Below the pieces are notes generated by a model that had not been told where the DNA came from, searched no databases, and saw only the letters and a list, made by a program, of their open reading frames with translations. The position numbers and the translations under genes were made by a program. This document shows positions 33,440-63,945 of a stretch of 64,000 bases of DNA, in pieces. The number at the start of each line of letters is the position of its first letter. Position 1 is the first letter of the stretch. The stretch is from Caenispirillum bisanense (GTDB lineage Bacteria; Pseudomonadota; Alphaproteobacteria; Rhodospirillales; UBA2165), in assembly GCA_945877815.1 (NCBI GenBank), contig CAMDWJ010000016.1, positions 7,516-71,515 of the forward strand. Reading direction: 5' to 3'.

Positions 33440-33520
33440 CGATAACTCCCTGTTTGCGGCATCTCGACCGCCGCAATTTTCGCGCGGCCGGTGCCTTGTT
33501 CTTGATCGTAAAAGGCCAGT

Positions 33521-34678: not shown

Positions 34679-34724
34679 GGCCTACCTCATCCTGTTCGAT
34701 TTATGCGTTCACAGGAGTGCTTCG

Positions 34725-35888: not shown

Positions 35889-36019
35889 GGGTCACCTCGA
35901 CGCGATTGCCTGACTGCGATGAATTATTCTGTCTTTTTTGGTCCTTCGATCGGATCTGGGGACGGGTTCAGATTAACAGATATAATTGCATGTGTTAAAC
36001 GAGTTAATTAAATCAACGA

Positions 36020-38934: not shown

Positions 38935-38982
38935 CTCAGCTATGACGGTTCCCCGGTCCCGGGTTTCGATACTCGCGCATGA

Positions 38983-40074: not shown

Positions 40075-40104
40075 GTAAACCTCCCTGATATGCCGTTTGT
40101 GTTT

Positions 40105-46359: not shown

Positions 46360-48714
46360 ATGATCAAACGTCGCGGTGACGGGAAAATCGGCGATGCGGT
46401 TCCGCGCCGGGAGGACCTGCGCCTCCTGCGCGGTCGGGGGCGTTATAGCGACGACATCAATGTTGAAGGCCAAGCCTATGCCATGATGGTCCGTTCACCG
46501 CACGCCCATGCGCGCATCCGCAAGATCGATTCGACCGATGCATTGAAAGTTCCAGGCGTACTGGCGGTGCTGACGGGTGCAGACGTCATTGCCGATGGCT
46601 TGAAGCCGATTCCGCACACGCCTTATCCGACTGCCGGCATGGATATCCAACTGGTCAATCGCGATGGCAGCGCACCGCCCGTTAAGTTGCCGCCTATTCT
46701 GCCGGCAGATCGCGCTCGCTTCGTTGGCGAAGCAATCGTCATGGTGATTGGCGAGACCTTGGCTGCGGCGCGCGACGGTGCCGAACAGGTGTTGGTCGAT
46801 TACGAGCCGCTTCGCGCAATCACGGCGACGCCGGACGCGATTGGGCCGGATGTTCCACTGTTGTGGGACGATCTCAAATCGAATGTCTGCATGGACGCCG
46901 ACGTCGGCAACAAAGAGGCCGCCGAGGGGGCATTTGCGCAGGCAGACTATACTGTTCGACTTGAGACATGGATTCCTCGGGTCACGGGCGTGCCCATGGA
47001 GCCGCGCGCGGCGGTTGGCGATTTCGACATGACGGCAGATAAATACACGTTGTTCGCCGGCTCGGGGGGTGTCGTGCGCCAGAAGTCGGAACTCGCCATC
47101 ATCCTCGGGGTGCCCGAGGCGCAGGTGCGGGTTGCCGCTTGGGACATCGGCGGCAATTTCGGCACGCGCAATTCCTTCTTCCCGGAATTCGCCCTGGTCG
47201 TCTGGGCGGCGAAGCGGCTCGGGCGTCCGGTTAAATGGACGGCGACGCGCGAGGAAGCCTTCCTCAGCGATTTCCAGGGGCGCGATCTCTTCGTTGAGGC
47301 CGAGTTGGCTTTGGACAAGCAAGGCAACTTCCTCGGCTTGCGTGGCTCGAATGTCAGCAATATGGGTGCCTATACGGCGTCGATGGTTCCGCTCACCAAG
47401 GGCGTTGAAATCATGACGGGTGCCTATCGCATTCCGGCCGCCTATTTCCGCGCGCGCGGCGTCATGACCAACACGCCGTGCACGGCGCCCTATCGTTCGG
47501 CCGGGCGGCCAGAGGTGATTTTTGTCATTGAACGTCTGGTCGATCTTGCCTGTCGACAGCACGGATTCGACCCAGTCGATTTGCGTCGACGCAATCTGAT
47601 TCCGGCCGATGCCATGCCCTATGAAAACGGTCTCGGCATGACCTACGACAGCGGCGATTACCGTGCTGCCCTCGAAGCCGCGATTAAACTCGGCGATTGG
47701 TCCGGGTTCGAAACGCGCAAACGGGAATCAATCGGACGTAGGAAATTACTCGGGCGGGGGCTCGCGAGTTACATGGAAACCTCAACGGGTGCCCCACGCG
47801 AGCGGGCCGAGGTGACGGTACGGCCCGAAGGCAAGATTGATCTTCTTATTGGTACCTTGTCGTCGGGGCAGGGACATGAGACCAGCTTTCCCCAACTTAT
47901 TACTGAGTTTCTCGGCATTTCCGGCGATGACGTCAATTTCATCCAAGGCGACAGCGACATCGTACCGGTCGGTGGCGGTTCTCATTCGGGCCGCTCGATG
48001 CGCCTCGCCGGTATCGTAGTCGGCAACGCGACCGAACTGATCATCGCCAAAGGCAAACAGATCGCGGCTCATATAATGGAGGCCTCCCCCGCTGATATCG
48101 AATTCTCCGATGCCCGTTTTAAAGTTGCGGGCACGGATCGCGAGATTGGTTTGTTCGAAGTGGCGAAGGCGGCAATCGAGCGCAACGATTTACCGGACGA
48201 TTTGCGCGGTCCGCTCAAGGCGGAGTCCGATATCGTGCGGCGCATTCCCTCATTTCCATACGGCTGCCACGTCTGCGAGGTCGAACTCGATCCGGAAACG
48301 GGCAAGGTCGAGGTCGTGCAATATGCGGGAGTCGACGACGTCGGCCGGGCCGTCAATCCGTTGATCCTGCATGGACAGGCGCACGGCGGCATCGTGCAGG
48401 GTTTGGGTCAGGCGATGAGCGAGCTGTGTCATTACGAGCCCAGCAGCGGGCAAATGCTGTCGGCCTCCTTCATGGATTACGCGATGTTGCGCGCGGACAA
48501 TGTTCCATCGTTCCTGACCGAAATCAGCGAGACGCCGTCACCCAACAATCCGTTGGGCATTCGCGCCGGAGGCGAGGGCGGAACGACGCCGGCGCTCGCG
48601 GTTTTCGTCAATGCCGTGGTTGACGCGCTGTCGCCCTTCGGGATCACGCATGTCGAGATGCCGACCACCTCCGCTCGCATCTGGCAGGCAATTCGCGAAT
48701 CTCGAAGCGATTGA
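46360..48714 (+). CDS. xanthine dehydrogenase family molybdopterin-binding subunit (CoxL/CutL-like)
   Basis: RSPHAHARI, GGNFG, PYRSAGRPE, QGHET, GQAHGGIVQG, GGEGG. Confidence 0.9.
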   Translation: MIKRRGDGKIGDAVPRREDLRLLRGRGRYSDDINVEGQAYAMMVRSPHAHARIRKIDSTDALKVPGVLAVLTGADVIADGLKPIPHTPYPTAGMDIQLVNRDGSAPPVKLPPILPADRARFVGEAIVMVIGETLAAARDGAEQVLVDYEPLRAITATPDAIGPDVPLLWDDLKSNVCMDADVGNKEAAEGAFAQADYTVRLETWIPRVTGVPMEPRAAVGDFDMTADKYTLFAGSGGVVRQKSELAIILGVPEAQVRVAAWDIGGNFGTRNSFFPEFALVVWAAKRLGRPVKWTATREEAFLSDFQGRDLFVEAELALDKQGNFLGLRGSNVSNMGAYTASMVPLTKGVEIMTGAYRIPAAYFRARGVMTNTPCTAPYRSAGRPEVIFVIERLVDLACRQHGFDPVDLRRRNLIPADAMPYENGLGMTYDSGDYRAALEAAIKLGDWSGFETRKRESIGRRKLLGRGLASYMETSTGAPRERAEVTVRPEGKIDLLIGTLSSGQGHETSFPQLITEFLGISGDDVNFIQGDSDIVPVGGGSHSGRSMRLAGIVVGNATELIIAKGKQIAAHIMEASPADIEFSDARFKVAGTDREIGLFEVAKAAIERNDLPDDLRGPLKAESDIVRRIPSFPYGCHVCEVELDPETGKVEVVQYAGVDDVGRAVNPLILHGQAHGGIVQGLGQAMSELCHYEPSSGQMLSASFMDYAMLRADNVPSFLTEISETPSPNNPLGIRAGGEGGTTPALAVFVNAVVDALSPFGITHVEMPTTSARIWQAIRESRSD

Positions 48715-51978: not shown

Positions 51979-52062
51979 TCGGTGGACCCGCGTTCTGCTG
52001 TGGACAAGCGGCAGTCCTCGGTGGGACAATTTCCCATAATAATAAGTTTGGGAGATTTCACG

Positions 52063-53085
52063 ATGAAGGCCCTCGTCTCGTCTTTGCTTCTGTCGACCTT
52101 TTTGGCGCTTCTAAGCGTGCCGTCCTCGGCGCAATCGCTGGCCGAGTTCTACAAGGACAAAAAGCTCAACATGATTATCGGCTTCGGGCCGGGCGGCGGG
52201 TACGATCAGTGGGCCCGTGTCGTCGCGCGTCACATGGGCAAGCATATCCCGGGCAATCCGACCTTCGTGCCGCAGAACATGCCGGGTGCCGGCAGTCTGA
52301 CGGCGGCCAATCATATCTACAGCGTGGCGCCCAAGGACGGCACGACGATCGGAATCATCGCGCGCGATGCGCCACTGGCGCCGCTCACCGGAGCCGAAGG
52401 CGGACGCTTCGATGCGCTCAAATTTACGTGGCTCGGCAGTCCGACGGCGGAGACCAATGTCTGCATCGCGCACAAGAATTCGGGCATGAAGATACTGGCC
52501 GACGTGCAGGCGAAGGAGTTGATTATCGGAGATACCGGCCCTGGCACTGGCACCTATACCTATCCACGCGTACTCAATGCGATTCTCGGCACCAAGTTCA
52601 AGGTTGTCGGCGGGTTCCCGGCCTCTTCGGACGTGTTCCTTGCGATGGAGCGTGGCGAAGTGCACGGCATCTGCGAAAGTTATGACAGCGTAATGGGCAA
52701 GAAGCCGGATTGGATCAAGGACGGCACCGTAAACGTACTGGTTCAGGGCGGCGCGGAACCCAATCCGCATCTCAAGGCGCCGTTCATCTTCGATCTCGCC
52801 AAGACCGACGAGCAGAAACAGGCGCTGGTCTTCGTCTATTCGGGCCAGGGCATCGGACGTCCGTTCGTGGCGCCGCCGGATATGCCGGCCGACCGCGTGA
52901 AGGTGCTTCAAGCGGCCTTCGACGCAACGATGAAGGATCCCGAATTCATCGCCGATGCGGCCAAGCAGAAGCTCGAAGTCGAGCCGGTTCCGGGCGATAG
53001 GCTTGCTGCGATCCTGAAATCGATCTACGCGACGCCGAAGCCGATCATCGATCGGATCGCGAAAATTCTCGAAGATACGAAATAG
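52063..53085 (+). CDS. Bug/TctC tripartite tricarboxylate transporter substrate-binding protein
   Basis: GFGPGGGYD, NMPGAGS, PKDGTTI, AMERGEV. Confidence 0.88.
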   Translation: MKALVSSLLLSTFLALLSVPSSAQSLAEFYKDKKLNMIIGFGPGGGYDQWARVVARHMGKHIPGNPTFVPQNMPGAGSLTAANHIYSVAPKDGTTIGIIARDAPLAPLTGAEGGRFDALKFTWLGSPTAETNVCIAHKNSGMKILADVQAKELIIGDTGPGTGTYTYPRVLNAILGTKFKVVGGFPASSDVFLAMERGEVHGICESYDSVMGKKPDWIKDGTVNVLVQGGAEPNPHLKAPFIFDLAKTDEQKQALVFVYSGQGIGRPFVAPPDMPADRVKVLQAAFDATMKDPEFIADAAKQKLEVEPVPGDRLAAILKSIYATPKPIIDRIAKILEDTK

Positions 53086-53105: not shown

Positions 53106-53903
53106 CTATAGACCGAGCGGCCCCCAACCGATGGGTTTGCAGGCCTTTTCGACGTTCTGTTTGCCCGGCAATTTCTCATCCCACACCTTCGCATCGATAC
53201 GCTTGGCGGTGATGCCGTCCGCTTCGTCGGATGCGAACCAGGCGACGGCCGGTCCCATCACGCTGGGCTGCAGTAGGTCTTCGCGTTTCATCCCTGGCCG
53301 ATCGGGCACCAGGCGGGTATCCACCATGCCGCCCGGCGTGATCGCGTTGACGGTGATGCCGCTGTCCTTGAGATCGATTGCTAGGCCCGCCGTGAAGGCT
53401 TCGCTCGCGGCTTTAGCGCCGCCGTAGGCGGTGAAGCTGGGACGCATCATCACCGCAAAGTCCGTGACCACTGTCAGGATGCGGCCGCGGCCTTGCGCCC
53501 GCATGGTCGGGATTACGGCCGCTGCCAAACGGAGCGGCGCGATTGAATGGACCGCGAAGAATTCCATCAAATTATGCGGCGGCACGTCCCACGGATGCAG
53601 CGGGTTCGTCGCATAATCCGTGCGGATGGTCTGCTGTCCGATGCCGGCATTGTTGACCAGCATGTCGATCCGCCCGAAGGCGGATTTACATGTCTCCGCG
53701 ATCCGGGTGCGTTCTTCATCGCGGGTTACATCGGCGTTCAGATGCTGGATTCGTCCTTCTGGGATTCCCGGCTCGCCGACCGGTTCGCCGTCGATATCCA
53801 CCACCAATACATTGGCGCCCGCGCGCGCGAGTGCGATCACCATCGCACGGCCGAGGCCGCGCGATCCGCCGGTGACGATGCAAGCCTTACCTGCGAGGTT
53901 CAT
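53106..53903 (-). CDS. short-chain dehydrogenase/reductase
   Basis: TGGSRGLG, VNNAG, YGGAK. Confidence 0.9.
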   Translation of the reverse strand: MNLAGKACIVTGGSRGLGRAMVIALARAGANVLVVDIDGEPVGEPGIPEGRIQHLNADVTRDEERTRIAETCKSAFGRIDMLVNNAGIGQQTIRTDYATNPLHPWDVPPHNLMEFFAVHSIAPLRLAAAVIPTMRAQGRGRILTVVTDFAVMMRPSFTAYGGAKAASEAFTAGLAIDLKDSGITVNAITPGGMVDTRLVPDRPGMKREDLLQPSVMGPAVAWFASDEADGITAKRIDAKVWDEKLPGKQNVEKACKPIGWGPLGL

Positions 53904-53906
53904 TGT

Positions 53907-55004
53907 TTATTTCCGCATAACCTCTTTGAATATTTTCACGACAGCTTCGACTTCCTTTTCGCCATCCTCAGTCGCGACCCAAACGTATTGCTCCGGCTTG
54001 GAGAAATCCGGCAAATCCTCGCCGTGGTTAGGGGCCGGCGCGACATCCTTGCGCATGCTGATCGCGCCGTTTGCGTTATATTTTGCCCATTCCTGGACGA
54101 AGAGCGCCTGACCTTCTTTACTCAGCAGCCAGTTGACAAAAATTTTCGTTGCTTCTGGATTCGGCGCATTCTTGAAAACCGACAGTCCACGTGACGAGGC
54201 CGCGGCCAATCCGCGGATCGGCTCAATGTTCTTGCATCCCCCATCGACGATACATTGCGAATAGGACGTACTTTGCATGCCGATCGCGAGTGTCGCGCCG
54301 CCACGCAAAATCGCCGTGTCTATCTGCTGTGGATTGTCGAGAACGCGGGGATCCATCTCCGTGAGGAACGTTCTCAGAAAGTCAGCGCCCTTCGCTTTGT
54401 AAATGGGTGCCAGTGCCCATGCGCCGGCATTCGGCTGGGATGCATCGCGCAACACGATTTTCCCCTTGATTTTCGGATTAAGCATATCGTTCGGGAAGAT
54501 GCTCTTCACTTCGGGCACGACGCTGACGTTGTGATAAGCCGATACGGTCACTTCGTGCGAATGGGTGAACACGAAGCGCTTCGCATCGCCATAGATGTAG
54601 TTGGGATGCCGCCAATTCGAAACTTCCTTAACTTCGGGAAGGATTAGAAAGGGCTCAAACGGCTGAAGCATGCCGGCGGGGGCTGCGACCCCAACCATAT
54701 TCGACGTGGTTGCCCACCATATATCCCAAAGATATTGACCGTTGCCTTGCTCCGTTCTGACGCGTGGCAGGATAACGGTCGGTCGGGCTGCGGATGCCTC
54801 GACCTTGATCCCGAATTTCTTCGTGAATTCCTCGATGACTGCGTCGAAGCCTTTATTGCCCTGATTGACCATGACGAGAGTCTGAGTTTTGGCTTTAGCG
54901 AGGGTTGCATTCCATTCCGGGTTGGCATTCTGCGCCTCCACGACGGACGGAAATGCTAACAGCAGTGCGAGTGCGCCAAGCACCCGATGTTTGATCGAAG
55001 ACAT
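53907..55004 (-). CDS. ABC substrate-binding protein (array copy 5, 365 aa)
   Basis: Signal peptide; QYLWDIWW, KNAPNPEATKIFVNWLLSKEGQ; RBS AAGGAG. Confidence 0.88.
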   Translation of the reverse strand: MSSIKHRVLGALALLLAFPSVVEAQNANPEWNATLAKAKTQTLVMVNQGNKGFDAVIEEFTKKFGIKVEASAARPTVILPRVRTEQGNGQYLWDIWWATTSNMVGVAAPAGMLQPFEPFLILPEVKEVSNWRHPNYIYGDAKRFVFTHSHEVTVSAYHNVSVVPEVKSIFPNDMLNPKIKGKIVLRDASQPNAGAWALAPIYKAKGADFLRTFLTEMDPRVLDNPQQIDTAILRGGATLAIGMQSTSYSQCIVDGGCKNIEPIRGLAAASSRGLSVFKNAPNPEATKIFVNWLLSKEGQALFVQEWAKYNANGAISMRKDVAPAPNHGEDLPDFSKPEQYVWVATEDGEKEVEAVVKIFKEVMRK

Positions 55005-55031
55005 GTTGAACTCCTTGTCGAATATGGGGCA

Positions 55032-56129
55032 CTATTTGCCGGTTACTTGCTTGAATATCTTCACGACCGCATCGACTTCCGCGGCTCCGTCCTGCGTGGC
55101 GACCCAAACATAGTCGTCCGCGCGCGAGAAATCGGGCACATGCTCCACGTGATCGGGATGCGGCTCTACATCCTTACGCATACTAATGGCACCCGATAAA
55201 CTGGATGCGGCCCATTCTTTTACCCAAAGGGTTTGGCCTTCCTTGCTGAGCACCCAATTCAGGAAGATCTTCGTTGCTTCCGGATTGGGTGCGTTTTTAA
55301 AGACCGACAATCCGCGAGAGGCAATATTCGCAAAACCTGGGAGGGGTCTGATATTCTTGCAACCGCCGTCCTTCACGCACTGCGAATAGGCCGAACGTTG
55401 CATGCCGAGTGCGATCGCGGCGCCGCCACGCATGATCGCGCTATCGATCTGTTGCGGATTATCAAGTACGCGCGGCTCCTGGTCTTTGAGGAGTTTGGTC
55501 ACAAAATCGCCGCCTTTCACCCGGTAGAGCGGGGCAAGCGACCATGAGCCGGCATTCGGTTGAGAGGCATCCCGCATCACGATTTTCCCCTTGAGCCTGG
55601 GATCGAGCAACTGCCCGATGTCGTCGGAGTTCAACTCCTTCTCGACGTCTATGTTGCGATAGGCGGAAAAAGAAACCTCGTGTGAGTGCGTGAAGACCAG
55701 TTTGCCCGCATCGCCCCAAATATATTTCGGGTGGCGCCACTGCGCGATATCCTTGATCTCTGGCAGCATCAAGAACGGTTCCATCGGCTGCAGCATGCCC
55801 GCTGGCCCCGCGACGCCAGTCATGTTCGACGTCGAGGACCACCAGAGATCCCAGATGTACTGGCCGTTGGCTTGCTCGGTCTTCACGCGCGGCAGGATCA
55901 CCGTCGGTCGCGCGACGGTCGCGTTAACCTTGATGCCGTATTTCTCGGTGAAGGCGCTAATCATCTTTTCGTAGGTAGGTTCGCCCTGGTTGACGATGAA
56001 GAGAGTCTGGGTCTTGGCCTTAGCCAGTGTCGCATTCCATTCCGCGCTGGTCGATTGGGCGTAGAGTTCCGTGTTCGTTACGGCCAGAACTGCGAGGACG
56101 CCAAGCGTCCCTTTAATGATTCGTGACAA
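55032..56129 (-). CDS. ABC substrate-binding protein (array copy 4, 365 aa)
   Basis: Paralog of its neighbours; TTG start with AAGGA RBS. Confidence 0.88.
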   Translation of the reverse strand: MSRIIKGTLGVLAVLAVTNTELYAQSTSAEWNATLAKAKTQTLFIVNQGEPTYEKMISAFTEKYGIKVNATVARPTVILPRVKTEQANGQYIWDLWWSSTSNMTGVAGPAGMLQPMEPFLMLPEIKDIAQWRHPKYIWGDAGKLVFTHSHEVSFSAYRNIDVEKELNSDDIGQLLDPRLKGKIVMRDASQPNAGSWSLAPLYRVKGGDFVTKLLKDQEPRVLDNPQQIDSAIMRGGAAIALGMQRSAYSQCVKDGGCKNIRPLPGFANIASRGLSVFKNAPNPEATKIFLNWVLSKEGQTLWVKEWAASSLSGAISMRKDVEPHPDHVEHVPDFSRADDYVWVATQDGAAEVDAVVKIFKQVTGK

Positions 56130-56157
56130 TGCATTTATCCTTATTCGTCGAGACTGA

Positions 56158-57255
56158 TTATTTGCCCATCACTTCCTTGAAAATCTTCACGACCGCGTCG
56201 ATTTCCTTCGCGCCGTCGTCGGTCGATACCCAAACATATTGTTCGGGCTTGTTGAAATCGGGCTGGTCTGCCTTGTGATCGGGGTGGGGTTCCACGTCTT
56301 TGCGCATGCTGACCGCGCCCGTAAGATTATGCTTCGCCCATTCGCGCACCGCGACGGTTTGGCCGTCTTTGCTGAGAAGCCAGTTCACAAAAACCTTGGT
56401 GGCATCGGGATGGGGTGCGTTCTTGAAGACCGAGAGGCCCCGCGACAGCGTTATCGCCAACTGAGACACCGGCGTGATATTCTTGCAACCACCGTCTTTC
56501 AGGCATGTCGCATAAGACGTGTTCTGCATGCCGAACGCGACGGCAGCGCCGCCCCGCATCAGAGTTGTGTCCAGTTGCTGCGGATTGTCCAGAACCTTGG
56601 GGTCCTGATCTTTCATGAATTGACGGACGAAATCCCCGCCTTTGGCCTTGTAGAGCGGCGCCAAAGCGAAGGCGCCGGAATTGGGCTGGGACGCATCGCG
56701 TGCAACGATCTTTCCTTTTAAGCGGGGATCGAGCAGGGCATCGAGATTGTCGAGTTTCAACTCGGGCACTACATCGATATTGCGATAGAGCGAGAAGCTG
56801 ACCTCGTGCGAATAGGTGAAGACGAATCGGGTCGGATCGCCATAGAGGTAGTCCTTATGGCGCCACTGGTTGACGTCCTTTACCTCGGGCAGCATCAGCA
56901 GAGGTTCGAACGACTGTAACATGCCGGCCGGCGCGGCGACGTTTACCATATTTGCCGTGATTGACCACCACACGTCCCACAGATACTGGCCGTTGTTTTG
57001 TTCGGTCTTCACGCGCGGGAGGATGACGGTCGGCCGCGATACGGTCGATTGGACTTTGATGCCGAATTTCTTCGTGAATTCCTCGACGATGGTGTCGAAA
57101 GCCTTGTTGTCCGAATAAACAACGACCAAGGTTTGACCCTTGGCTTTTTCGACCGTCGCCCTCCAGGCGGCATCGCCGTCTTGAGCGAATCCCGCGCTCA
57201 GACTGAAAGCGAATGCCGCGAGCGCGCTAAGCGCTCCGGTCAGGATTTTCCTCAT
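56158..57255 (-). CDS. ABC substrate-binding protein (array copy 3, 365 aa)
   Basis: Paralog; signal peptide GFA-QD. Confidence 0.88.
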   Translation of the reverse strand: MRKILTGALSALAAFAFSLSAGFAQDGDAAWRATVEKAKGQTLVVVYSDNKAFDTIVEEFTKKFGIKVQSTVSRPTVILPRVKTEQNNGQYLWDVWWSITANMVNVAAPAGMLQSFEPLLMLPEVKDVNQWRHKDYLYGDPTRFVFTYSHEVSFSLYRNIDVVPELKLDNLDALLDPRLKGKIVARDASQPNSGAFALAPLYKAKGGDFVRQFMKDQDPKVLDNPQQLDTTLMRGGAAVAFGMQNTSYATCLKDGGCKNITPVSQLAITLSRGLSVFKNAPHPDATKVFVNWLLSKDGQTVAVREWAKHNLTGAVSMRKDVEPHPDHKADQPDFNKPEQYVWVSTDDGAKEIDAVVKIFKEVMGK

Positions 57256-57272
57256 GCGGAATTCCCCTCGGC

Positions 57273-58364
57273 TTATTTGCCCATTACTTCCTTGAATATC
57301 TTCACGACCGCATCGATCTCCTTCGATCCGTCGTCAGTCGATACCCAGACATACTGATTAGGATTGGAGAAGTCGGGCTGGTTTTCCTTGTGATCCGGAT
57401 GCGGCTCCACGTCCTTGCGCATGCTGACCGCGCCGGTCTGGTTGTACTTCGCCCATTCGGCGACGAGGCGTGTCTGGCCTTCCTTGCTGAGGATCCAGTT
57501 GACGAAGACCTTGGTGGCTTCGGGATTTGGCGCGTTCTTGAAAACGGCGAAGCCACGCGAGACGGCGGTCGACATGTGCGGGATAGGGAAAATATTCTTG
57601 CAGCCGCCATCCTTCAGGCATTGCGAATAGGCAGCGCCCTGCATGCCGAACGCCACGGCCGCGCCGCCGCGGATGATGGTAGTGTCGATCTGCTGCGGAT
57701 TGTCGAGTACGCGAGGGTCCTGCTCCTTCAGCAGCTTGGTCACAAACGCGCCGCCCTTCGCTTTGTAGAGTGGCGATAACGCGAACGAGCCGGCGTTCGG
57801 TGCCGACGCATCGCGCAGGATGACTTTGCCTTTCAACCTCGGATCGAGCAGAGAATCTAATGTATCGAGTTTGAGCTCGGGCACGACATCGCGGTTGCGA
57901 TAGGCCGAGTAGGAAACCTCGTGGCTATAGGTGAAGACGTGTTTGATCGGATCGCCATGCAGATAGTCCTTGTGGCGCCACTGATTTACGTCTTTCACTT
58001 CCGGTAGAACCAGGAACGGATCGAATGGTTGCAGCATTCCGGCAGGCGAAGCGACATTTACCATGTTCGCCGTAATCGCCCACCAGATGTCCCAGAGGTA
58101 CTGGCCGTTCGCTTGTTCGGTTTTGACACGTGGAAGGATGACGGTCGGCCGCGCCGTGGTCGATTCAACCTTGATGCCGGTCTTCTTGGTGAATTCGGCC
58201 AACAATTCATCGACCGCTTTATTCTCCTGATAGACCATCACGAGCTTTTGCGTTTTGGCTTTCTCGATGACGGCCTTCCATTCGGCGTCCTGCGCCTGGA
58301 CTGTTCCGACCGATGCGACGAGCAGTGCGAATACACCGAGAGTCCAATTGAAAATCCGCGACAT
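57273..58364 (-). CDS. ABC substrate-binding protein (array copy 2, 363 aa)
   Basis: Paralog; start moved to MSRIFNW (58364) with GGAGG RBS. Confidence 0.88.
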   Translation of the reverse strand: MSRIFNWTLGVFALLVASVGTVQAQDAEWKAVIEKAKTQKLVMVYQENKAVDELLAEFTKKTGIKVESTTARPTVILPRVKTEQANGQYLWDIWWAITANMVNVASPAGMLQPFDPFLVLPEVKDVNQWRHKDYLHGDPIKHVFTYSHEVSYSAYRNRDVVPELKLDTLDSLLDPRLKGKVILRDASAPNAGSFALSPLYKAKGGAFVTKLLKEQDPRVLDNPQQIDTTIIRGGAAVAFGMQGAAYSQCLKDGGCKNIFPIPHMSTAVSRGFAVFKNAPNPEATKVFVNWILSKEGQTRLVAEWAKYNQTGAVSMRKDVEPHPDHKENQPDFSNPNQYVWVSTDDGSKEIDAVVKIFKEVMGK

Positions 58365-58499
58365 TTGAAACCTCCGTTTCGGCTCTATGGGCCGATCGTG
58401 CCTGTGTGATCCGTTCCCCGATCTCAGGGCCGCCATTGTTGTAAGGAGCATGCATATTGGCCCGGCATGACGAAGCGGCGCAAGTGTTCGTTCGGGCAT

Positions 58500-58535
58500 A
58501 AAAAAAACGCCAAGGACCGGCAAGGGGCCTTGGCG
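58500..58535 (-). terminator. intrinsic terminator after the first binding protein
   Basis: On the minus strand, an 8-bp stem CGCCAAGG/CCTTGGCG followed by an 8-T run. Confidence 0.8.
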
Positions 58536-58554
58536 CCGATCGGTGGGCGGCGGC

Positions 58555-59652
58555 TCAGTGGCCGGTTACGGCCTTGAATATTTTGATCGTCTCGTTGATT
58601 TCCTGGCTGCCTTTTTCGCTCGATACGAAGACATATTTATCCGGCTGAGTGAAATCCGGCAAATACTGCGAGTGACCAGGGGCCGGTTCTACATCCTTGC
58701 GCATACTGACTGCACCTGAGTTGTTGACTTTGGCCCATTCGCGCACGGAAACCTCCTGGCCTTCCTTGGACAGGAACCAATTGAGCCAGACCTTCGTTGC
58801 CTCCGGATTCGGCGGATTTTTCGGCACCGAAAGCCCCCAGGAAATGGCAATGGAGAATTGCTTCAACTCATCGACGCTCTTGCAGCCGCCGTCGCGGCGG
58901 CATTGTTCCCAGATCGATGATTCAAGCCCGATCGAGATCGCCTGGCCGCCACGCGTGATGGCGGTTTCGAGTTGCTGGGGGTTCGCATAGACCTTTACGT
59001 CCTGTTCCTTCAGGAGGCGGGTCAGGAACTCAGGGCCCTTCGCATGATAAAGCGTCGCGAGGGCGAATGTCCCGAAATTCGGAACCGACGCGTCGCGCAT
59101 CGAGATTTTGCCCTTGAGCCGAGGATCGAGGAGGGAGTCCAGGGTGGCGATCTTCAATTCCGGCAGCACCGCCTCGTTGCGGAGGATGGGGAAGCTCAGC
59201 TCATTGAGGTGCGTAAAGACGCGCTTGCCGCTGTCGCCGTAAATGAAATCGGGGTGGCGCCAATTGGCCGCTTCCTTGATCTCGGGAAGGATGAAGTAGT
59301 TTTCCAATGGTTCCAGCATTCCAGCCGGCGCCGCCGAGTTTACCATGTTGGACGTGCCGCCCATCCAAACGTCCCAAACGTATTGACCGTTTTTTTGTTC
59401 GGTCTGCATACGGGTAAGCGTGGCTGAGGGCCGCGAGATGGTGGCTGCGACCTTAATGCCAAATTTTTTCGTGAATTCGGCCAGGATGGCGTCGATGGCA
59501 AGACTTGGTTGCTGGGCGAAGACGAGGCTCTGGCTCTTGGCCTTCTCAACGGTCGCCTTCCATTCCGCTTCCCACGATTGCGCGGACGATACGCTGGGGA
59601 TCGCGGCCGACATCATAAGCGCGCTGCAGATGGCTATGGTTCTGGACAGCAT
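58555..59652 (-). CDS. ABC substrate-binding protein (array copy 1, 365 aa)
   Basis: Most divergent paralog; follows the permease; GGAGGAA RBS. Confidence 0.88.
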   Translation of the reverse strand: MLSRTIAICSALMMSAAIPSVSSAQSWEAEWKATVEKAKSQSLVFAQQPSLAIDAILAEFTKKFGIKVAATISRPSATLTRMQTEQKNGQYVWDVWMGGTSNMVNSAAPAGMLEPLENYFILPEIKEAANWRHPDFIYGDSGKRVFTHLNELSFPILRNEAVLPELKIATLDSLLDPRLKGKISMRDASVPNFGTFALATLYHAKGPEFLTRLLKEQDVKVYANPQQLETAITRGGQAISIGLESSIWEQCRRDGGCKSVDELKQFSIAISWGLSVPKNPPNPEATKVWLNWFLSKEGQEVSVREWAKVNNSGAVSMRKDVEPAPGHSQYLPDFTQPDKYVFVSSEKGSQEINETIKIFKAVTGH

Positions 59653-59703: not shown

Positions 59704-61434
59704 TTATTCCGCGCGGCCGAGGCCGGCCTTCAATCCGATATGACGCGCGAGCAATGCCGCGACGATCGTTATCACCATGATCATGATGCCGATCACCGAA
59801 GCGGGCTCGAACAAGCCGCTATCGAGATAGATGAGCTGAACGATGGACAGGGGCTGTGTCGCCCCGGTGCCGAGCAGCGCGACAAGGCCGACAACGGAGA
59901 CGCCGGTCGCGAAGATCTCGAGGCCGATCACGGCGACGGACGGTGCGATCAGTGGCAGCACGACGCGTCGGAACGTATAGAAGCGCGATGCGCCGGCCGC
60001 GGCCGAGGCTTCCTCCAGTTCCGCGCCGAGGCGCATCAGGCTCGTTTTGATGATCTGCGTGCCGAGCGCCAGCGAACCCACGATTACCGCGAGAACGAGG
60101 ACGGCGATCGTTCCGTAGATCGGTCGGAAGATCGGCGTTCCCGCGAACATCTGCAAGAAGCCGAGGCCGAGGACGAGGCCCGGGATGATCGCCGGAAGCC
60201 ACGTGAGGAAATCAAGGAGGCGCCGGCCCCAGAATTTGGTCTTAACGACGATGTACGCGAGCAGGGAATAGACCGCCATGCCGATCAGCGCTGCCGAGAT
60301 CGCAAGCCGCATCGAGTTCCAAAAGGCACGCGGAATGTCGCCGCGGCTGAAGGCATCGACCCAATTGCGCGTCGTCCACGGCTGAGGCAGGTCGAACATA
60401 CCGAACTTCTTCATGAAGCTGCTCACGAGCAGCAGAATGAAGGGAAGGATCGTCATGAAGAACAGCAGCGCGGCGATCACGCCGAACAAGATCCAGCGCC
60501 AGCTTCCCAGATCCATGCTGCGGTTGGAGAACTTGCCCGAGATCGAGGAATGAGCCGATGCGCCGTACCATTGCTGGAGTGCTACCAGTGGCGCGATGAC
60601 GGCCAGGAAGGTCACCGAGAGCGCCGCCGCGATGCCGTGGCCGGGCGGCGTGGCGTTGATCGCCTTGTAGATTGCCGTGGAGTAGACCTCGATGCGAACG
60701 GGGCCACCCAGGATCAATTCGATTTCGAAGGCCTGCATGGAGCGGATCATGCCCAGCATGATGACCACGATGATGGTCGGTGCCATAATCGGCACGACGA
60801 TGTGAAGGAGCGTCTTGAAGATCGGCGCGCCGCAGGTGCGCGCGGCCTCTTCGAGGGCCGCATCCATACCGCGGAAGGCGGGCACCAACAGAAAAACCTT
60901 GATCGCAAGGGTCGAGGTCATGAGGTGGACCCAGATGATGCCCCACCACGAGTAGATCTTGAAGAGGTCGTAATCGATGCCGAACAGCCAGCGCGCGCCG
61001 ATATTGAGCAGGCCGATACTTTCGTCGGCGAGCAGCACCCAGGCGAGCGTGATGGGCAGGGCCGGCATGAACAGCGCAATCCAGAAGCCGACCTCGATCC
61101 AGCCCGCGAAGGGCAGATTGGTGCGCGCAATCAGCCATGCGAGGATCACGCCAAAGATGAGCGAGATGAACTGGCGCCCGACGGCGAGTGTCAGGGTGTT
61201 CTGAATCGCATCGACGAGGCGCGGGCGCGAGAAGATTTCGCGCCAATTGTCGAGCCCCGTCGAGGGATTGAGGGTGAAGGCATTCACCTGGAAGCTCGTT
61301 ATGACCAGCATCAACGCCGGGTAGATCACCAAGAAAGCGACCATCGCCAGGACAATCGTGTAGAAAAGAGATTGTGCGCTGACGCCAGGTTTGTTTATTG
61401 ACCAGGTGCCGCGTTGAAGAACCGCTTCGCTCAT
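59704..61434 (-). CDS. ABC permease, FbpB-type
   Basis: LEEAARTCGA and LEEASAAAGA EAA loops. Confidence 0.9.
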   Translation of the reverse strand: MSEAVLQRGTWSINKPGVSAQSLFYTIVLAMVAFLVIYPALMLVITSFQVNAFTLNPSTGLDNWREIFSRPRLVDAIQNTLTLAVGRQFISLIFGVILAWLIARTNLPFAGWIEVGFWIALFMPALPITLAWVLLADESIGLLNIGARWLFGIDYDLFKIYSWWGIIWVHLMTSTLAIKVFLLVPAFRGMDAALEEAARTCGAPIFKTLLHIVVPIMAPTIIVVIMLGMIRSMQAFEIELILGGPVRIEVYSTAIYKAINATPPGHGIAAALSVTFLAVIAPLVALQQWYGASAHSSISGKFSNRSMDLGSWRWILFGVIAALLFFMTILPFILLLVSSFMKKFGMFDLPQPWTTRNWVDAFSRGDIPRAFWNSMRLAISAALIGMAVYSLLAYIVVKTKFWGRRLLDFLTWLPAIIPGLVLGLGFLQMFAGTPIFRPIYGTIAVLVLAVIVGSLALGTQIIKTSLMRLGAELEEASAAAGASRFYTFRRVVLPLIAPSVAVIGLEIFATGVSVVGLVALLGTGATQPLSIVQLIYLDSGLFEPASVIGIMIMVITIVAALLARHIGLKAGLGRAE

Positions 61435-61440
61435 GTTGTC

Positions 61441-62586
61441 TTACTCGCTGTGCGAATCGGTGGCGGACCGATCCCACAATTGCAGCTTGTTTGGCGGCAA
61501 CGTGAGTCGGACGGGTTGGCCTTCGCGCCAGTCGTACGCCGGCGAAAGGCGTAGCAGAGCCATATGACCACCTGGCAGCTCGATGTCGGCCTCGTAGGTT
61601 TCGCCCATGAAAAGCAATGTGCGAATGGTTGCTTTCAGACTGTTGGTGCCGGCGGCGTTGGTCGTTTCGGCAGGTTCGACGATGATCGATTCAGGGCGCA
61701 CCGAGACAAGGCACTTCTCGTCGATGGCACGCGACGAGGTCCGAATCGGTCCGGCGACGCTGAATACCTGACCGTCTGCGACGCTCACGTCCACGTTCGC
61801 CCCAGTGGTGCCGACGATACGTGCCGGCATCAGGATCGAACGGCCCAGGAAGTCGCGCACGGCCGGCGTACCGGGTTCGGCATATAATTGCTCGGGCGGA
61901 CCGATCTGTTCGATGCGGCCATCCTTCATCACTGCTATGCGGTCGCTGAGCGCGAGCGCCTCGCTCTGGTCGTGCGTGACGAACAGGATGGAGATGCCGA
62001 TACGGCGTTGCAGACGCTTCAGCTCGGCACGCATGTTCTCACGAAGGCGGGCGTCGAGATTGCTGAAGGGCTCGTCCATCAGCAGAACGCTCGGATTGGC
62101 GACCAGGCCGCGCGCCACGGCGACGCGCTGCATCTGTCCGCCCGAAAGTTGCGTCCCGCGACGGTTCTCATAGCCTTTGAGGCCGACCTGATCGAGTGTT
62201 TCCAACACCCGGCGATTGGCTTCGGCCTTGGGCACTTTGCGGTAGCGCAGCGGGTAGGCGACGTTCTCCAACACGCTCATGTGCGGCCAGATGGCATAGG
62301 ATTGGAACACCATGCCCATGCCGCGCTTTTCAGGCTCGACGAAGAGGCGATCGGCCGGACTATCGACGAGCTTGCCCTCGTAGCTCACCCGCCCGCTGGA
62401 CAGCCGTTCCAGCCCAATGGACATGCGTAAGGTCGTCGTCTTGCCGCAACCGGAAGGGCCGAGCAGTGTCAGAATTTCACCGCGCTTCAGCTCGAACGAA
62501 ACGTCATTAACGGCCCGCACCGGGCCGAACATGCGTGAGACGTTCTCAAAAGTCAGGATCGCGTCCTGGGTTTCGTTTTGCGACAT
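61441..62586 (-). CDS. ABC ATP-binding subunit (FbpC type)
   Basis: GPSGCGKT, LSGGQMQR, LLMDEPFSNLD. Confidence 0.93.
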   Translation of the reverse strand: MSQNETQDAILTFENVSRMFGPVRAVNDVSFELKRGEILTLLGPSGCGKTTTLRMSIGLERLSSGRVSYEGKLVDSPADRLFVEPEKRGMGMVFQSYAIWPHMSVLENVAYPLRYRKVPKAEANRRVLETLDQVGLKGYENRRGTQLSGGQMQRVAVARGLVANPSVLLMDEPFSNLDARLRENMRAELKRLQRRIGISILFVTHDQSEALALSDRIAVMKDGRIEQIGPPEQLYAEPGTPAVRDFLGRSILMPARIVGTTGANVDVSVADGQVFSVAGPIRTSSRAIDEKCLVSVRPESIIVEPAETTNAAGTNSLKATIRTLLFMGETYEADIELPGGHMALLRLSPAYDWREGQPVRLTLPPNKLQLWDRSATDSHSE

Positions 62587-62655: not shown

Positions 62656-63945
62656 TTACCACTTACAGACTAGATCTTCGGCGTATTGTTCGCGCCAGTC
62701 CTTGCCTGCGGGAACCAGTCCGTCGTGCGGCCGGCATTGGCCATGCGTTTTCGGATCGGTGCCGCGCGGCCGATTGCCTGCCTCGACATCGCGCGTCGCT
62801 TCCAGCAGCAAGTTGCGCATAGAGATGATCGCCTTGTCCGACGAGCCGAGATTCTCTTTGGTCCGATCGCAGATCATCTTTCCATCGGCGCCGCCCATGG
62901 CTTCTTGCAGCGCGAAGTCCTGGGTGTTGACGCCGACAATGCCGGTGAAGTTCGAGGTCTTCTGCATCTGTCGGTCGATCAGGTAATCATTCGACGGATT
63001 CTTTTTCAGAACGAACGTGATCGGGTCCAGATCGTCTTTGCCGCGACCGGCCGACTTTTCCATTTCCTCAACATATTCAGGGCTCAGCGCCGCATTCTGA
63101 TTGGCGCCGACCATCCAGTTGTAGACAAAGGTATGTTCATCGTCGATTGGCACCCAGATATGGCCGTCATGCTTCGGGACACGATTGGAGCGTGAACCCG
63201 GATTGCCTTGGACGTTGGCGCGCATCTGCTGCCCCGGCATGACATATTGATAGACGCGCACATAGGTGCCGTCCTCGTTCGCGTTGCGGTGCGAGACGTA
63301 ATAGAAGCCGTAATCGGTTTTCTCGACGTCGAGGCGAGGGGCGCGGTCGCGTTGGCGGAATTCGAGCTTGTCGCCCAATTTGTTGTTATGCAGGTACGAC
63401 GAATGCGCGGTGTCGAGCCCGCCTTCGAGCGCCTGCAGCCAATTGCAATGTTCGAAGGTCTTGGAAACGTGGCGATGGGTTTCGGGTGCACGCATCCATT
63501 CGTAATTCGGCGGCTCGGGCATCTGATCCTTGGGCCCGAGATAGGCGAAAATGAGGCCGGCTTTCTCAAAGGTCGGGTAAGCGCCGATCTTGATATGATC
63601 CTTCATCTTGCTCGAGGCGGGTTCGGTCGGCACATCGACGCAATTGCCGTCGGCATCGAATTTCCAGCCGTGATAGACGCAGCGCAGGCCGCATTCTTCG
63701 TTGCGCCCGTAGAACATCGGCGCGCGGCGGTGCGGGCAATAGGCCTCGACTAAGCCGACCTTGCCGTTGGTATCGCGGAAGGCTACGAGGTCCTCGCCTA
63801 ATAGCCGGACGCGAACGGGAGCGCCGTCTGGCTCCGGCGCTTCGCTCGACAGCAAGATCGGCTGCCAATATCTACGCATCAACTCGCCCGTGGGCGTGTT
63901 GCGGGAGACTCGGGTCAGGCGGACATTGTCTTCTTGCGACAACAT
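62656..63945 (-). CDS. Rieske oxygenase alpha subunit, phthalate 4,5-dioxygenase-like
   Basis: CPHRRAP...CVYHGW; EGGLDTAHSSYLH; QDFALQE. Confidence 0.9.
   Translation of the reverse strand: MLSQEDNVRLTRVSRNTPTGELMRRYWQPILLSSEAPEPDGAPVRVRLLGEDLVAFRDTNGKVGLVEAYCPHRRAPMFYGRNEECGLRCVYHGWKFDADGNCVDVPTEPASSKMKDHIKIGAYPTFEKAGLIFAYLGPKDQMPEPPNYEWMRAPETHRHVSKTFEHCNWLQALEGGLDTAHSSYLHNNKLGDKLEFRQRDRAPRLDVEKTDYGFYYVSHRNANEDGTYVRVYQYVMPGQQMRANVQGNPGSRSNRVPKHDGHIWVPIDDEHTFVYNWMVGANQNAALSPEYVEEMEKSAGRGKDDLDPITFVLKKNPSNDYLIDRQMQKTSNFTGIVGVNTQDFALQEAMGGADGKMICDRTKENLGSSDKAIISMRNLLLEATRDVEAGNRPRGTDPKTHGQCRPHDGLVPAGKDWREQYAEDLVCKW

What the first reader, a model, noticed from the sequence alone, without database searches (positions are those of the whole stretch)
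53907..59652. Five tandem binding-protein paralogs serving one permease, varied at likely pocket positions
Seen: five head-to-tail genes of 365, 363, 365, 365 and 365 aa, each with its own RBS and signal peptide. The scaffold is conserved, but three segments vary in a patterned way: WMGGTSNM / WWAITANM / WWSITANM / WWSSTSNM / WWATTSNM; THLNEL / TYSHEV / TYSHEV / THSHEV / THSHEV; NFGTFAL / NAGSFAL / NSGAFAL / NAGSWSL / NAGAWAL. Copies 2 and 3 still share near-identical 3-prime DNA. Inference: a receptor repertoire expanded by duplication, letting one translocator scavenge a family of related ligands for the adjacent oxygenase and SDR.
Basis: partly seen in the sequence, partly recalled or inferred. 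Interest (0 to 1): 0.65.

Follow-up and report, generated by a model that had tools for sequence, protein, structure and literature searches.

The report
Five-receptor ABC importer for aromatic acids
One nutrient pump in an uncultured freshwater bacterium has five different periplasmic "catcher" proteins encoded beside it and seven more elsewhere in the genome, probably so it can take up a range of related aromatic acids; the design is already known from other transporters, but this protein family is unstudied and is mislabelled as an iron carrier.

Summary
The five head-to-tail binding-protein genes are real. They lie on the minus strand, encode 365/363/365/365/365 aa, and each has an RBS and a Sec signal peptide. 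They follow a Rieske oxygenase, one ABC ATPase and one fused permease, and an SDR gene comes after them.

The copies are old: 51-72% aa identity, saturated dS, dN/dS 0.10-0.35. Each has its own orthologues in other assemblies. The "near-identical 3' DNA" of copies 2 and 3 is overstated.

Paralogue-specific positions are enriched at pocket-aligned sites (p=0.002). The enrichment is only about threefold, and the strongest segment (243-249) was missed.

The genome holds 12 close paralogues but only one closely matching translocator. Seven are orphans, and four of those sit directly behind Rieske paralogues.

The oxygenase keeps the carboxylate-binding Arg/His of phthalate and isophthalate dioxygenases. 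One orphan neighbours a 4,5-dihydroxyphthalate-decarboxylase homologue.

Best reading: a multi-receptor importer for aromatic carboxylates, which is a new member of a known kind (compare DppA1-5). No ligand has been tested.

The parts
62656..63945 (-). Rieske non-haem iron oxygenase, alpha subunit (429 aa), of the phthalate/isophthalate dioxygenase type. First gene of the unit.
   Evidence: Pfam Rieske plus LigXa_C. PDB matches: 9ina 6e-91, 7fjl (PDO_KF1) 4e-87, 7fhr 3e-85. It keeps PDO R207/R231/R244 as R197/R220/R230, and IPDO H257 as H262.
61441..62586 (-). ABC ATPase with a C-terminal TOBE_2 domain (381 aa).
   Evidence: Pfam ABC_tran plus TOBE_2. NCBIfam shows it is PotA/PhnT2/Fbp-like, below the equivalog cut-offs.
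59704..61434 (-). Fused two-domain ABC permease (576 aa). It is the only translocator in the locus.
   Evidence: Two BPD_transp_1 stretches; PhnU2-like, 1.4e-48. Only one other permease in the genome is closely related (C47, 58.6% identity).
58555..59652 (-). S1, binding protein copy 1 (365 aa). Clade A, pocket signature WMGGT / N150 / W272.
   Evidence: AlphaFold2 model with pLDDT 94.3.
58500..58536 (-). Intrinsic-terminator-like hairpin (CGCCAAGG...CCTTGGCG) followed by eight T (U8 in RNA), about 20 nt (19 nt) after the S1 stop. It lies inside a 190-nt spacer before S2.
   Evidence: The spacers at this position are short in L001 (47 nt) and L010 (20 nt).
57273..58364 (-). S2, binding protein copy 2 (363 aa). 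Clade B, sister to S3.
   Evidence: 87% identical to L001 copy 2, with an identical pocket signature.
56158..57255 (-). S3, binding protein copy 3 (365 aa). Clade B.
   Evidence: 91% identical to L001 copy 3.
55032..56129 (-). S4, binding protein copy 4 (365 aa, TTG start). Clade B.
   Evidence: A 95% orthologue in L011/L012 covers residues 1-365.
53907..55004 (-). S5, binding protein copy 5 (365 aa). Clade B. It has no counterpart in the congener locus L001.
53106..53903 (-). Classical SDR oxidoreductase (265 aa), starting 3 nt after S5. Candidate cis-diol dehydrogenase.
   Evidence: Pfam adh_short, 2.9e-37. It follows the last SBP in L001 and L010 and is truncated in L011/L012.
51982..53085 (+). 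Convergent TctC/Bug-like periplasmic receptor gene. A neighbour whose role in the system is uncertain.
   Evidence: Weak Pfam TctC hit, 8.6e-5, below the cut-off. The syntenic gene in L010 is recorded as PF03401. TctC genes also flank the single-copy betaproteobacterial loci.

Best explanation
The locus encodes one type-I ABC importer (a TOBE-domain ATPase and a fused two-domain permease) that is served by several periplasmic receptors of a small, uncharacterised subfamily of cluster-D (FbpA/AfuA/PotD-like) binding proteins.

Shown:
- The five cis-encoded receptors are intact and exported.
- They diverged long ago and are each kept under purifying selection as a separate orthologue group.
- They share an invariant set of pocket-aligned residues (R74-P75, T100, F146, P191-N192, Q227). 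They differ at other pocket-aligned sites (47-51, 97-101, 148-150, 193-196, 243-249, 269-272). These sites are fixed within each orthologue group.

Inferred:
- Each receptor binds a different member of one chemical family through a common anionic anchor, most probably a carboxylate.
- All five dock on the same permease.
- The seven orphan paralogues elsewhere in the genome use the same permease. Four of them are co-oriented directly behind paralogues of the locus's Rieske oxygenase.
- The ligands are aromatic (poly)carboxylates of the phthalate/isophthalate kind.
- After import they are dihydroxylated by the Rieske oxygenase. The reductase for that enzyme is encoded elsewhere.
- The SDR then re-aromatises the product.
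- The terminator after S1 suggests that S1 is made with the pump, while S2-S5 and the SDR are expressed by read-through or from a promoter of their own.
For: Gene order and domains:
-.

Age and selection:
- The copies share 51-72% aa and 59-71% nt identity. dS is 1.3 to above 2.7 and dN/dS is 0.10-0.35.
- In a 139-sequence tree, every paralogue has its own orthologues in other assemblies.
- Orthologues in the congener are 87-91% identical overall. In the pocket blocks, S2 is identical to its L001 orthologue and S3 differs at one position, while paralogues differ.

Pocket mapping:
- The profile alignment to AfuA (4r72) and P5PA (6wce) comes. Ligand-contact residues come from PMC4546632 and PMC8427247.
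- 7 of 18 pocket-aligned columns are among the 40 most group-specific of 340 columns (Fisher p=0.002). Seven more are near-invariant.
- The AlphaFold model (pLDDT 94.3) has helix N-termini at 75, 193 and 225, matching the three helix dipoles that hold the anion in P5PA.
- 17 of the top 40 columns lie in beta-to-alpha switch or hinge-strand elements (p=0.004).

One translocator for many receptors:
- The genome has 12 close paralogues plus one divergent copy, but only two related permeases. The second (58.6% identity) has its own ATPase, SBP and Rieske gene.
- 7 of the genome's 8 orphan cluster-D SBPs belong to this family.
- Both family clades are represented next to the window's permease.

Ligand class:
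- The Rieske protein matches a solved KF1 Rieske protein (9ina; identified as isophthalate dioxygenase IPDO_KF1 from residue numbering, and PMC12445078) and phthalate dioxygenase PDO_KF1 (7fjl), at 6e-91 and 4e-87. It keeps their carboxylate-binding R207/R231/R244 and H257, as do the SBP-linked paralogues.
- The neighbour of the C38 orphan is a homologue of 4,5-dihydroxyphthalate decarboxylase (9jp7, 1.5e-54).
- The single-copy betaproteobacterial loci carry the same decarboxylase-like gene (shown in L003), a LigB extradiol dioxygenase (L004), a fumarylacetoacetate (FAA) hydrolase-family gene and TctC genes (both).

Precedent:
- P. aeruginosa DppA1-5 (PMC12728205).
Against: - No ligand, binding or expression data exist.
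- The pocket map rests on alignments at 21% identity or less, and on a model whose coordinates I could not measure.
- The enrichment is moderate. 23 of the top 40 group-specific columns lie outside the pocket-type elements, and the pocket set is no more variable than the protein as a whole.
- There is one oxygenase for five receptors in cis.
- The canonical phthalate, isophthalate and terephthalate cis-diol dehydrogenases are not SDRs (own knowledge).
- Some orphans sit beside non-aromatic-looking genes: a PhoX phosphatase, a galactarate/altronate-dehydratase-family enzyme and TPP enzymes.
- The best structural matches include metal-citrate and Fe3+ binders.
- Docking of all paralogues on one permease is inferred only from gene counts in a 84-contig assembly.
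Confidence: 0.62

Rival explanations
1. Iso-receptors for one ligand. The five copies bind the same compound and differ only in affinity, in expression condition, or in stability at different pH or temperature. On this view the array tunes dosage or dynamic range and does not widen substrate range.
For: - Many pocket-aligned residues are invariant in all copies (R74, P75, T100, F146, P191, N192, Q227).
- There is a single oxygenase and a single SDR in cis.
- A terminator after S1 hints at differential expression.
Against: - The paralogues differ at positions aligned with the specificity determinants of AfuA and P5PA (245/246, 148, 99, 47/49). These residues are fixed within each orthologue group across species.
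- The separation is ancient and each group persists independently.
- Other paralogues are paired with distinct oxygenase paralogues.
Confidence: 0.12
2. The database label is right. These are Fe3+ or metal-chelate (for example metal-citrate) binding proteins, and the importer supplies iron to a cell that carries dozens of iron-dependent Rieske oxygenases.
For: - Source annotations call family members 'iron(III) transport system substrate-binding protein'.
- The best Foldseek matches are MctA (metal-citrate), FbpA, HitA and FutA.
- The genome has 42 LigXa_C-type Rieske genes.
Against: - No adjacent Tyr-Tyr pair, the hallmark Fe3+ ligands of FbpA/FutA/HitA (own knowledge), occurs anywhere in S1-S5. 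Only 4 of 139 family members have any YY.
- Identity to all iron binders is 21% or less.
- AfuA and P5PA show that such labels are often wrong in this cluster (PMC4546632, PMC8427247).
- Twelve receptors with diversified pockets would be unnecessary for one metal.
- The genes are embedded in catabolic contexts, not iron-regulated ones.
Confidence: 0.07
3. A multi-receptor importer as in the best explanation, but for a non-aromatic or non-carboxylate ligand family. Candidates are sugar acids, phosphonates or sulfonates, or N-methylated compounds that Rieske monooxygenases demethylate. The phthalate-type reading would then be wrong.
For: - The nearest NCBIfam models are 2-aminoethylphosphonate SBPs and permease.
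- Characterised relatives bind sugar phosphates and PLP.
- One orphan is followed by a galactarate/altronate-dehydratase-family gene, and two contexts hold TPP enzymes.
- The LigXa_C family includes demethylases.
Against: - NCBIfam scores are 23-38 bits against cut-offs of 310-395.
- AfuA's sugar-binding triad H205/D206/E229 is not present.
- The oxygenase keeps all three pocket Arg of phthalate dioxygenase and the meta-carboxylate His of isophthalate dioxygenase.
- A dihydroxyphthalate-decarboxylase homologue and a LigB ring-cleavage enzyme occur in family contexts.
Confidence: 0.15
4. Some copies are not transport receptors. They would act as periplasmic sensors for signalling or chemotaxis, or be decaying duplicates on the way to loss.
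For: - Copy number is unstable among relatives. The congener has four copies, L010 has a fourth copy split into 81 and 284 aa, and slot 1 is only 67-69% identical between relatives.
- DppA5 of P. aeruginosa bound none of the peptides tested (PMC12728205).
Against: - All five window copies are full-length with no stops, keep the family's 32 invariant residues and the disulfide pair C251/C257, and have dN/dS of 0.35 or less.
- No kinase or chemoreceptor gene is in the locus.
Confidence: 0.04

Closest known systems
Pseudomonas aeruginosa DppA1-5 with DppBCDF (PMC12728205). Also, from my own knowledge, HisJ/ArgT sharing HisQMP, Borrelia OppA1-5, and pneumococcal AmiA/AliA/AliB.
   Same: Several paralogous periplasmic binding proteins, partly encoded in tandem, feed one ABC translocator. 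Four of the five DppA paralogues showed distinct substrate profiles. This is the same architecture and the same logic as proposed here.
   Different: Those are cluster-C peptide binders or cluster-F amino-acid binders with tested ligands. Here the receptors belong to an uncharacterised cluster-D subfamily and the permease is a single fused polypeptide. Seven further paralogues are dispersed in the genome, and four of those are directly coupled to Rieske oxygenase genes. Nothing has been tested.
AfuA (sugar-phosphate binder, PDB 4r72-4r75) and P5PA (pyridoxal-phosphate binder, 6wce) of Actinobacillus
   Same: They are the best sequence matches among solved structures (5.6e-14 and 4.4e-11) and have the same class-II fold. 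An anion site is formed by helix N-termini. A fused permease is the partner. They too were annotated as iron transporters and later shown to bind organic anions.
   Different: Identity is about 20%. AfuA's H205/D206/E229 and the Ser/Gly/Thr phosphate cradle are replaced: an invariant Arg-Pro sits at the 36-37 position and P-N-x-G at 148-150. There is a single SBP per operon and no link to an oxygenase.
Phthalate and isophthalate catabolic clusters of Comamonas (PDO_KF1 7fjl/7v25; IPDO_KF1 9ina) and their uptake systems (MFS, TTT TphC/IphC, OphFGH and PatDABC ABC systems, TAXI-TRAP; PMC8649396, PMC12445078, PMC13040137)
   Same: The oxygenase is a homologue (E about 1e-90) with the same carboxylate-binding Arg/His. 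A dehydrogenase and a periplasmic receptor are encoded alongside. A TctC-type receptor gene lies next door.
   Different: Going by the identities the paper gives between the solved homologues themselves (31-38%; PMC12445078), the window's oxygenase is probably similarly distant; I did not compute its identity. The true substrate is therefore unknown. The dehydrogenase here is an SDR. The receptor family is not among the four transporter types listed for phthalates in the 2026 review. No pathway genes for the later steps are in the locus.
Bug/TctC orphan receptor expansions of Bordetella and other Betaproteobacteria (own knowledge; Antoine et al. 2003)
   Same: Many orphan periplasmic receptors, often next to catabolic genes, far outnumber the membrane components they must share.
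   Different: That is the TTT secondary-transporter family, not an ABC importer. The expansions there reach dozens to hundreds of genes and are not arranged in tandem behind the permease.

Membership tests
Cluster-D / class-II periplasmic binding proteins (Pfam SBP_bac_8, SBP_bac_11, SBP_bac_6; FbpA/AfuA/PotD-like) | Sequence match to the family models above the curated cut-off | tested here: met
   All five score 38-68 bits on SBP_bac_8 (cut-off 27) and 39-49 bits on SBP_bac_11 (cut-off 25).
Cluster-D / class-II periplasmic binding proteins | Two-lobed alpha/beta fold with two hinge strands, similar to solved members | tested here: met
   AlphaFold2 gives pLDDT 94.3 and pTM 0.88. Foldseek probability is 1.00 to MctA, FbpA, AfuA, HitA, FutA, P5PA and PotD, with TM about 0.6-0.75.
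Cluster-D / class-II periplasmic binding proteins | Export signal, and genetic linkage to a type-I ABC importer (permease plus ATPase) | tested here: met
   Signal peptides are present in all five. A fused BPD_transp_1 permease and an ABC_tran/TOBE_2 ATPase lie directly upstream.
FbpA/FutA/HitA ferric-ion binding proteins | Two adjacent tyrosines that ligate Fe3+ (H. influenzae Y195/Y196; own knowledge) | tested here: not met
   No YY dipeptide occurs in S1-S5. 4 of 139 family members have one anywhere. The aligned region 243-248 reads [LM][EQ]xxx[YW].
AfuA-type sugar-phosphate binding proteins | Sugar-coordinating motif H205, D206, E229 (PMC4546632) | tested here: not met
   The aligned columns 245, 246 and 269 hold S/G/N/R, S/A/T and A/I/T/S in the five copies.
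PhnS / PhnS2 2-aminoethylphosphonate binding proteins (NCBIfam NF011620, TIGR03227, TIGR03261) | Score above the equivalog cut-off | tested here: not met
   Scores are 21-38 bits against cut-offs of 310-395.
Multi-receptor ABC importers (DppA1-5 / HisJ-ArgT type) | More than one intact SBP gene of one family in cis with a single permease/ATPase set | tested here: met
   Five SBPs, one permease and one ATPase. The same layout, with 4 copies or 3 plus 1 split copy, occurs in relatives.
Multi-receptor ABC importers | The receptors differ in ligand specificity | tested here: inconclusive
   Group-specific residues are enriched at pocket-aligned sites (p=0.002) and in beta-alpha switch and hinge elements (p=0.004).
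Multi-receptor ABC importers | All receptors dock on and activate the same translocator | not testable with these tools
   Only gene counts are available: 12 close paralogues against 2 related permeases, and 7 orphans.
Phthalate-family Rieske oxygenases (PDO/IPDO-like, alpha-only) | Rieske CxH...CxxH motif, mononuclear-iron His pair, LigXa_C-type catalytic domain | tested here: met
   CPH...CVYH and DTAHSSYLH are present in the sequence. Pfam Rieske 2.6e-19 and LigXa_C 3.2e-44.
Phthalate-family Rieske oxygenases | Carboxylate-binding residues of the solved enzymes (PDO R207, R231, R244; IPDO R234, H257) | tested here: met
   They align to R197, R220, R230 and H262. They are conserved in the C27, C7 (three copies) and C73 paralogues.
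Phthalate-family Rieske oxygenases | Dihydroxylation of a phthalate isomer | not testable with these tools
   An enzyme assay is needed. RO_CH34 (7fhr), which is equally similar, turns over neither phthalate nor isophthalate (PMC8649396).

The most novel reading that the evidence does not exclude
This genus may run a hub-and-spoke uptake system. One ABC translocator, the one in this window, would serve at least 12 receptors of a previously unrecognised cluster-D subfamily specific for aromatic polycarboxylates. Five receptors are encoded behind the pump. Seven are encoded elsewhere, four of them as receptor-plus-Rieske-oxygenase pairs. New substrates could then be added by duplicating a two-gene module without a new transporter. 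If so, this would also be a fifth, unrecognised transporter type for phthalate-like compounds, currently mislabelled as an iron transporter in the databases.
Probability: 0.35. Interest if true: 0.6.

Novelty: new member of a known kind. Interest (0 to 1): 0.45.

Why it matters
- It would add a well-resolved natural example of how bacteria widen the substrate range of one ABC pump by multiplying receptors. Here that is coupled genome-wide to an expansion of Rieske oxygenases: 42 in a 4-Mb genome.
- It flags a small protein family that databases call 'iron(III)-binding' as probable organic-acid receptors.
- If the ligands are phthalate-like aromatic acids, the family is a new source of high-affinity binders and uptake parts. 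These could be useful for lignin or plastic-monomer bioconversion and for biosensors.
- It would also help explain how uncultured freshwater Alphaproteobacteria scavenge dilute aromatic dissolved organic matter.

Tried and rejected
- Recent duplication or gene conversion between copies 2 and 3: rejected. dS is saturated, the longest exact match is 20 nt, and synonymous identity is not raised at the 3' end.
- Assembly artefact: rejected. The copies are only 59-71% identical in DNA, and the array recurs in independent assemblies.
- Named equivalogs: none reached a cut-off (NCBIfam).
- RNA elements in the window: none at gathering threshold. The whole 196-nt spacer does not fold better than shuffled sequence (z=0.8). 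Only the terminator hairpin stands out.
- Sigma-70 promoter in the S1-S2 spacer: none found.
- Literature on Rieske-plus-ABC cassettes in freshwater MAGs: nothing relevant found.
- Simple excess variability in the pocket: not seen. 11 of 18 pocket-aligned columns vary, against 228 of 365 overall. Only the group-specific measure is enriched.
- Measuring distances on the AlphaFold model: not possible, because coordinates are not returned.
- An independent pocket map through MctA: not possible, because its alignment could not be displayed.

Full report
**What is there**

On the minus strand the window carries one compact gene row:
- A Rieske oxygenase (62656-63945) with Rieske and LigXa_C domains.
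- An ABC ATPase with a TOBE_2 domain (61441-62586).
- A 576-aa fused two-domain permease (59704-61434).
- Five binding-protein genes: S1 58555-59652, S2 57273-58364, S3 56158-57255, S4 55032-56129, S5 53907-55004.
- A classical SDR (53106-53903) that starts 3 nt after S5.

Gaps between genes are 3-69 nt, with one exception. A 190-nt spacer follows S1. It begins with an 8-bp GC-rich hairpin plus U8, which looks like an intrinsic terminator (58500-58536).

The same contig structure is present in independent metagenome assemblies.

**Age of the copies**

- S1 is 51-54% identical to the others. S2-S5 are 62-72% identical to each other. DNA identity is 59-71%.
- Synonymous divergence is saturated (dS 1.3 to above 2.7) and dN/dS is 0.10-0.35.
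- For copies 2 and 3, the last 60 nt are 90% identical and the last 150 nt are 85% identical. The longest exact match is 20 nt. Identical-codon usage at conserved residues is not raised at the 3' end.
- The 'near-identical 3' DNA' is therefore overstated, and there is no sign of recent conversion.

**Family and relatives**

- The five belong to a small family. Against 1.84 billion 50%-identity representatives, only three score above 450 bits and 289 reach E<=1e-30.
- The sources that name members label them 'iron(III) transport system substrate-binding protein'.
- In a tree of 139 members, every paralogue of this genome has its own orthologues from other assemblies.
- Clade A holds S1 and the paralogues C7a-c and C27. 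Clade B holds S2 and S3 (sisters), S4, S5, C38, C20 and C51.
- A third clade comes from Betaproteobacteria. The two loci fetched from it (L003, L004) hold a single copy next to a permease that is 71% identical to the window's.

Among 40 relatives, the expansion is confined to the genus: 13 copies here, 9 in the congener, 1 copy in one other genus and none in the other 38 genomes.

The syntenic locus varies in content among relatives:

| Locus | SBP copies | Notes |
|---|---|---|
| Window | 5 | S1-S5, then the SDR |
| L001 (congener; record title 'Rhodospirillaceae' MAG) | 4 | 67, 87, 91 and 72% identical to S1-S4; no S5 |
| L010 | 3 plus 1 split | Fourth copy split into 81 and 284 aa |
| L011 / L012 | at least 2 | S4 (95%) and S5 (89%), followed by a truncated SDR |

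**Are the variable sites in the pocket?**

The closest solved proteins by sequence are P5PA (6wce, 5.6e-14) and AfuA (4r72, 4.4e-11).

I used the published ligand contacts of AfuA and P5PA (PMC4546632, PMC8427247) with the printed alignment. The contacts map to columns 47, 49, 74-76, 99, 100, 146, 148, 191-193, 227, 228, 243, 245, 246 and 269, in S1 numbering.

An AlphaFold2 model of S1 (pLDDT 94.3, pTM 0.88) supports the register. Helices start at 75, 193 and 225, matching the three helix N-termini that hold the anion in P5PA. Foldseek finds only cluster-D proteins, all at 21% identity or less.

- Segment 96-103 covers the end of strand 95-99 and the start of helix 101, which are AfuA G59/T60.
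- Segment 147-152 is the first hinge strand, which carries AfuA Y103 and P5PA L105.
- Segment 192-198 is the N-terminus of helix 193, which is AfuA S148-G149-T150.

So the three segments do lie on pocket-forming elements.

I then scored each column by mutual information with 11 orthologue groups (99 sequences):
- 7 of the 18 pocket-aligned columns are in the top 40 of 340 (Fisher p=0.002).
- 7 more are near-invariant: R74, P75, T100, F146, P191, N192, Q227.
- 17 of the top 40 lie in beta-to-alpha switch or hinge-strand elements of the model (p=0.004).

The strongest discriminating stretch is 243-249, aligned with AfuA's essential H205/D206. It is followed by 47-51 and 270-272 (R272 in clade B, W in S1).

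In the pocket blocks, S2 and its orthologue in the congener are identical and S3 differs from its orthologue at one position, although the proteins are only 87-91% identical overall.

Two caveats apply. The alignment is remote, and I could not measure distances on the model. More than half of the group-specific columns lie elsewhere, and the pocket set is not more variable than the protein as a whole.

**One pump, many receptors**

- The assembly is 3.98 Mb in 84 contigs and is estimated 100% complete. It has 12 close paralogues plus a divergent one.
- Only two permeases of this type exist: the window's, and one at 58.6% identity that has its own ATPase, divergent SBP and Rieske gene.
- Of 32 cluster-D-like SBP genes and 12 fused permeases genome-wide, 8 SBPs are orphans, and 7 of these belong to this family.
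- Four orphans (C7 with three copies, and C27) lie 13-70 nt behind paralogues of the window's Rieske gene (69-86% identical).
- Because both clades sit next to the window's permease, that pump probably serves all 12. This is an inference from gene counts only.
- A second locus (contig 14) has ATPase, permease and eight tandem SBPs of another subfamily, 50-73% identical to each other. Receptor arrays are therefore a habit of this organism.

**What is transported**

- The Rieske protein matches a solved KF1 Rieske protein (9ina, 6e-91; taken to be isophthalate dioxygenase IPDO_KF1 from residue numbering and PMC12445078), phthalate dioxygenase (7fjl, 4e-87) and RO_CH34 (7fhr).
- It keeps R197, R220 and R230, which are PDO R207, R231 and R244. 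It also keeps H262, which is IPDO H257. These residues bind the substrate carboxylates (PMC8649396, PMC12445078). The SBP-linked paralogues keep them too.
- The gene after the C38 orphan is a homologue of 4,5-dihydroxyphthalate decarboxylase (9jp7, 1.5e-54).
- The betaproteobacterial single-copy loci carry the same decarboxylase-like gene (shown in L003), a LigB-type ring-cleavage dioxygenase (L004), a fumarylacetoacetate (FAA) hydrolase-family gene and several TctC receptors (both loci).
- The receptors have an invariant Arg-Pro at the anion-site helix. They lack the Fe3+ Tyr-Tyr pair, the AfuA sugar triad and any PhnS-level score.

I therefore favour aromatic (poly)carboxylates as the ligand family, at about 55%. 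Against this, some orphans neighbour a PhoX phosphatase, a galactarate/altronate-dehydratase-family enzyme or TPP enzymes. The SDR is also not the dehydrogenase type used in the known phthalate pathways (own knowledge).

**Comparison and verdict**

Several receptors feeding one ABC translocator is an established design. P. aeruginosa DppA1-5 is a direct five-copy parallel (PMC12728205).

The case here is a new, untested member of that kind, in an unstudied and mislabelled SBP subfamily. Its more interesting extension is the dispersed receptor-oxygenase modules in a genome with 42 LigXa_C-type Rieske genes.

Noticed in passing
own genome, contig C14:692-12289 (outside the window): A second receptor array: ATPase, fused permease, then eight tandem SBP genes of a different cluster-D subfamily. 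The eight are 50-73% identical to one another. The architecture is the same as in the window.
   Followed up: partly
whole genome G000 and relatives: There are 42 LigXa_C-type Rieske oxygenase genes in a 3.98-Mb genome and 33 in the congener. The other genera of the family sampled have 0-29, and the genomes from other families of the order 0-2.
   Followed up: partly
window 29190-41250, minus strand: Two further cassettes join a Rieske oxygenase to an FbpABC-type importer. One is Rieske, SBP, fused permease, ATPase (41250-36020). The other is Rieske, Rieske, SBP, fused permease, MFS (35888-29190). Their SBPs and permeases are only distantly related to the five-copy system (permeases 26-27% identical).
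   Followed up: partly
window 58365-58554: The 190-nt spacer with a strong terminator-like hairpin plus U8 between S1 and S2 is specific to this lineage. The congener has 47 nt at this position and another relative has 20 nt.
   Followed up: partly
L010:12254-13350; L011:2816-3031; L012:2723-3235: Relatives show decay at the distal end of the array. In L010 the fourth SBP is split into 81 and 284 aa. In L011 and L012 the SDR is truncated to 71 and 170 aa and the TctC-like gene is missing. Assembly errors are not excluded.
   Followed up: no
own genome C38:20179-21177 and L003:5942-6958: Cytoplasmic proteins of 332-338 aa have an SBP-like (SsuA/NMT1) fold and match 4,5-dihydroxyphthalate decarboxylase (PDB 9jp7, 1.5e-54). 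They sit next to members of the SBP family in two different classes of Proteobacteria.
   Followed up: partly
L001 vs window, slot 1 (window 58555-59652): The first SBP of the array is only 67-69% identical between relatives. The adjacent permease and ATPase are 90-92% identical and copies 2-3 are 87-91% identical. Slot 1 is either evolving fast or has been replaced, yet it keeps the same pocket signature (F193, W272, L149).
   Followed up: partly
window 46360-48714 (+) and 51982-53085 (+): A molybdopterin-binding xanthine-dehydrogenase/aldehyde-oxidase large subunit lies upstream. A TctC-like receptor that scores below the Pfam cut-off (22.6 bits) is convergent with the SDR.
   Followed up: no
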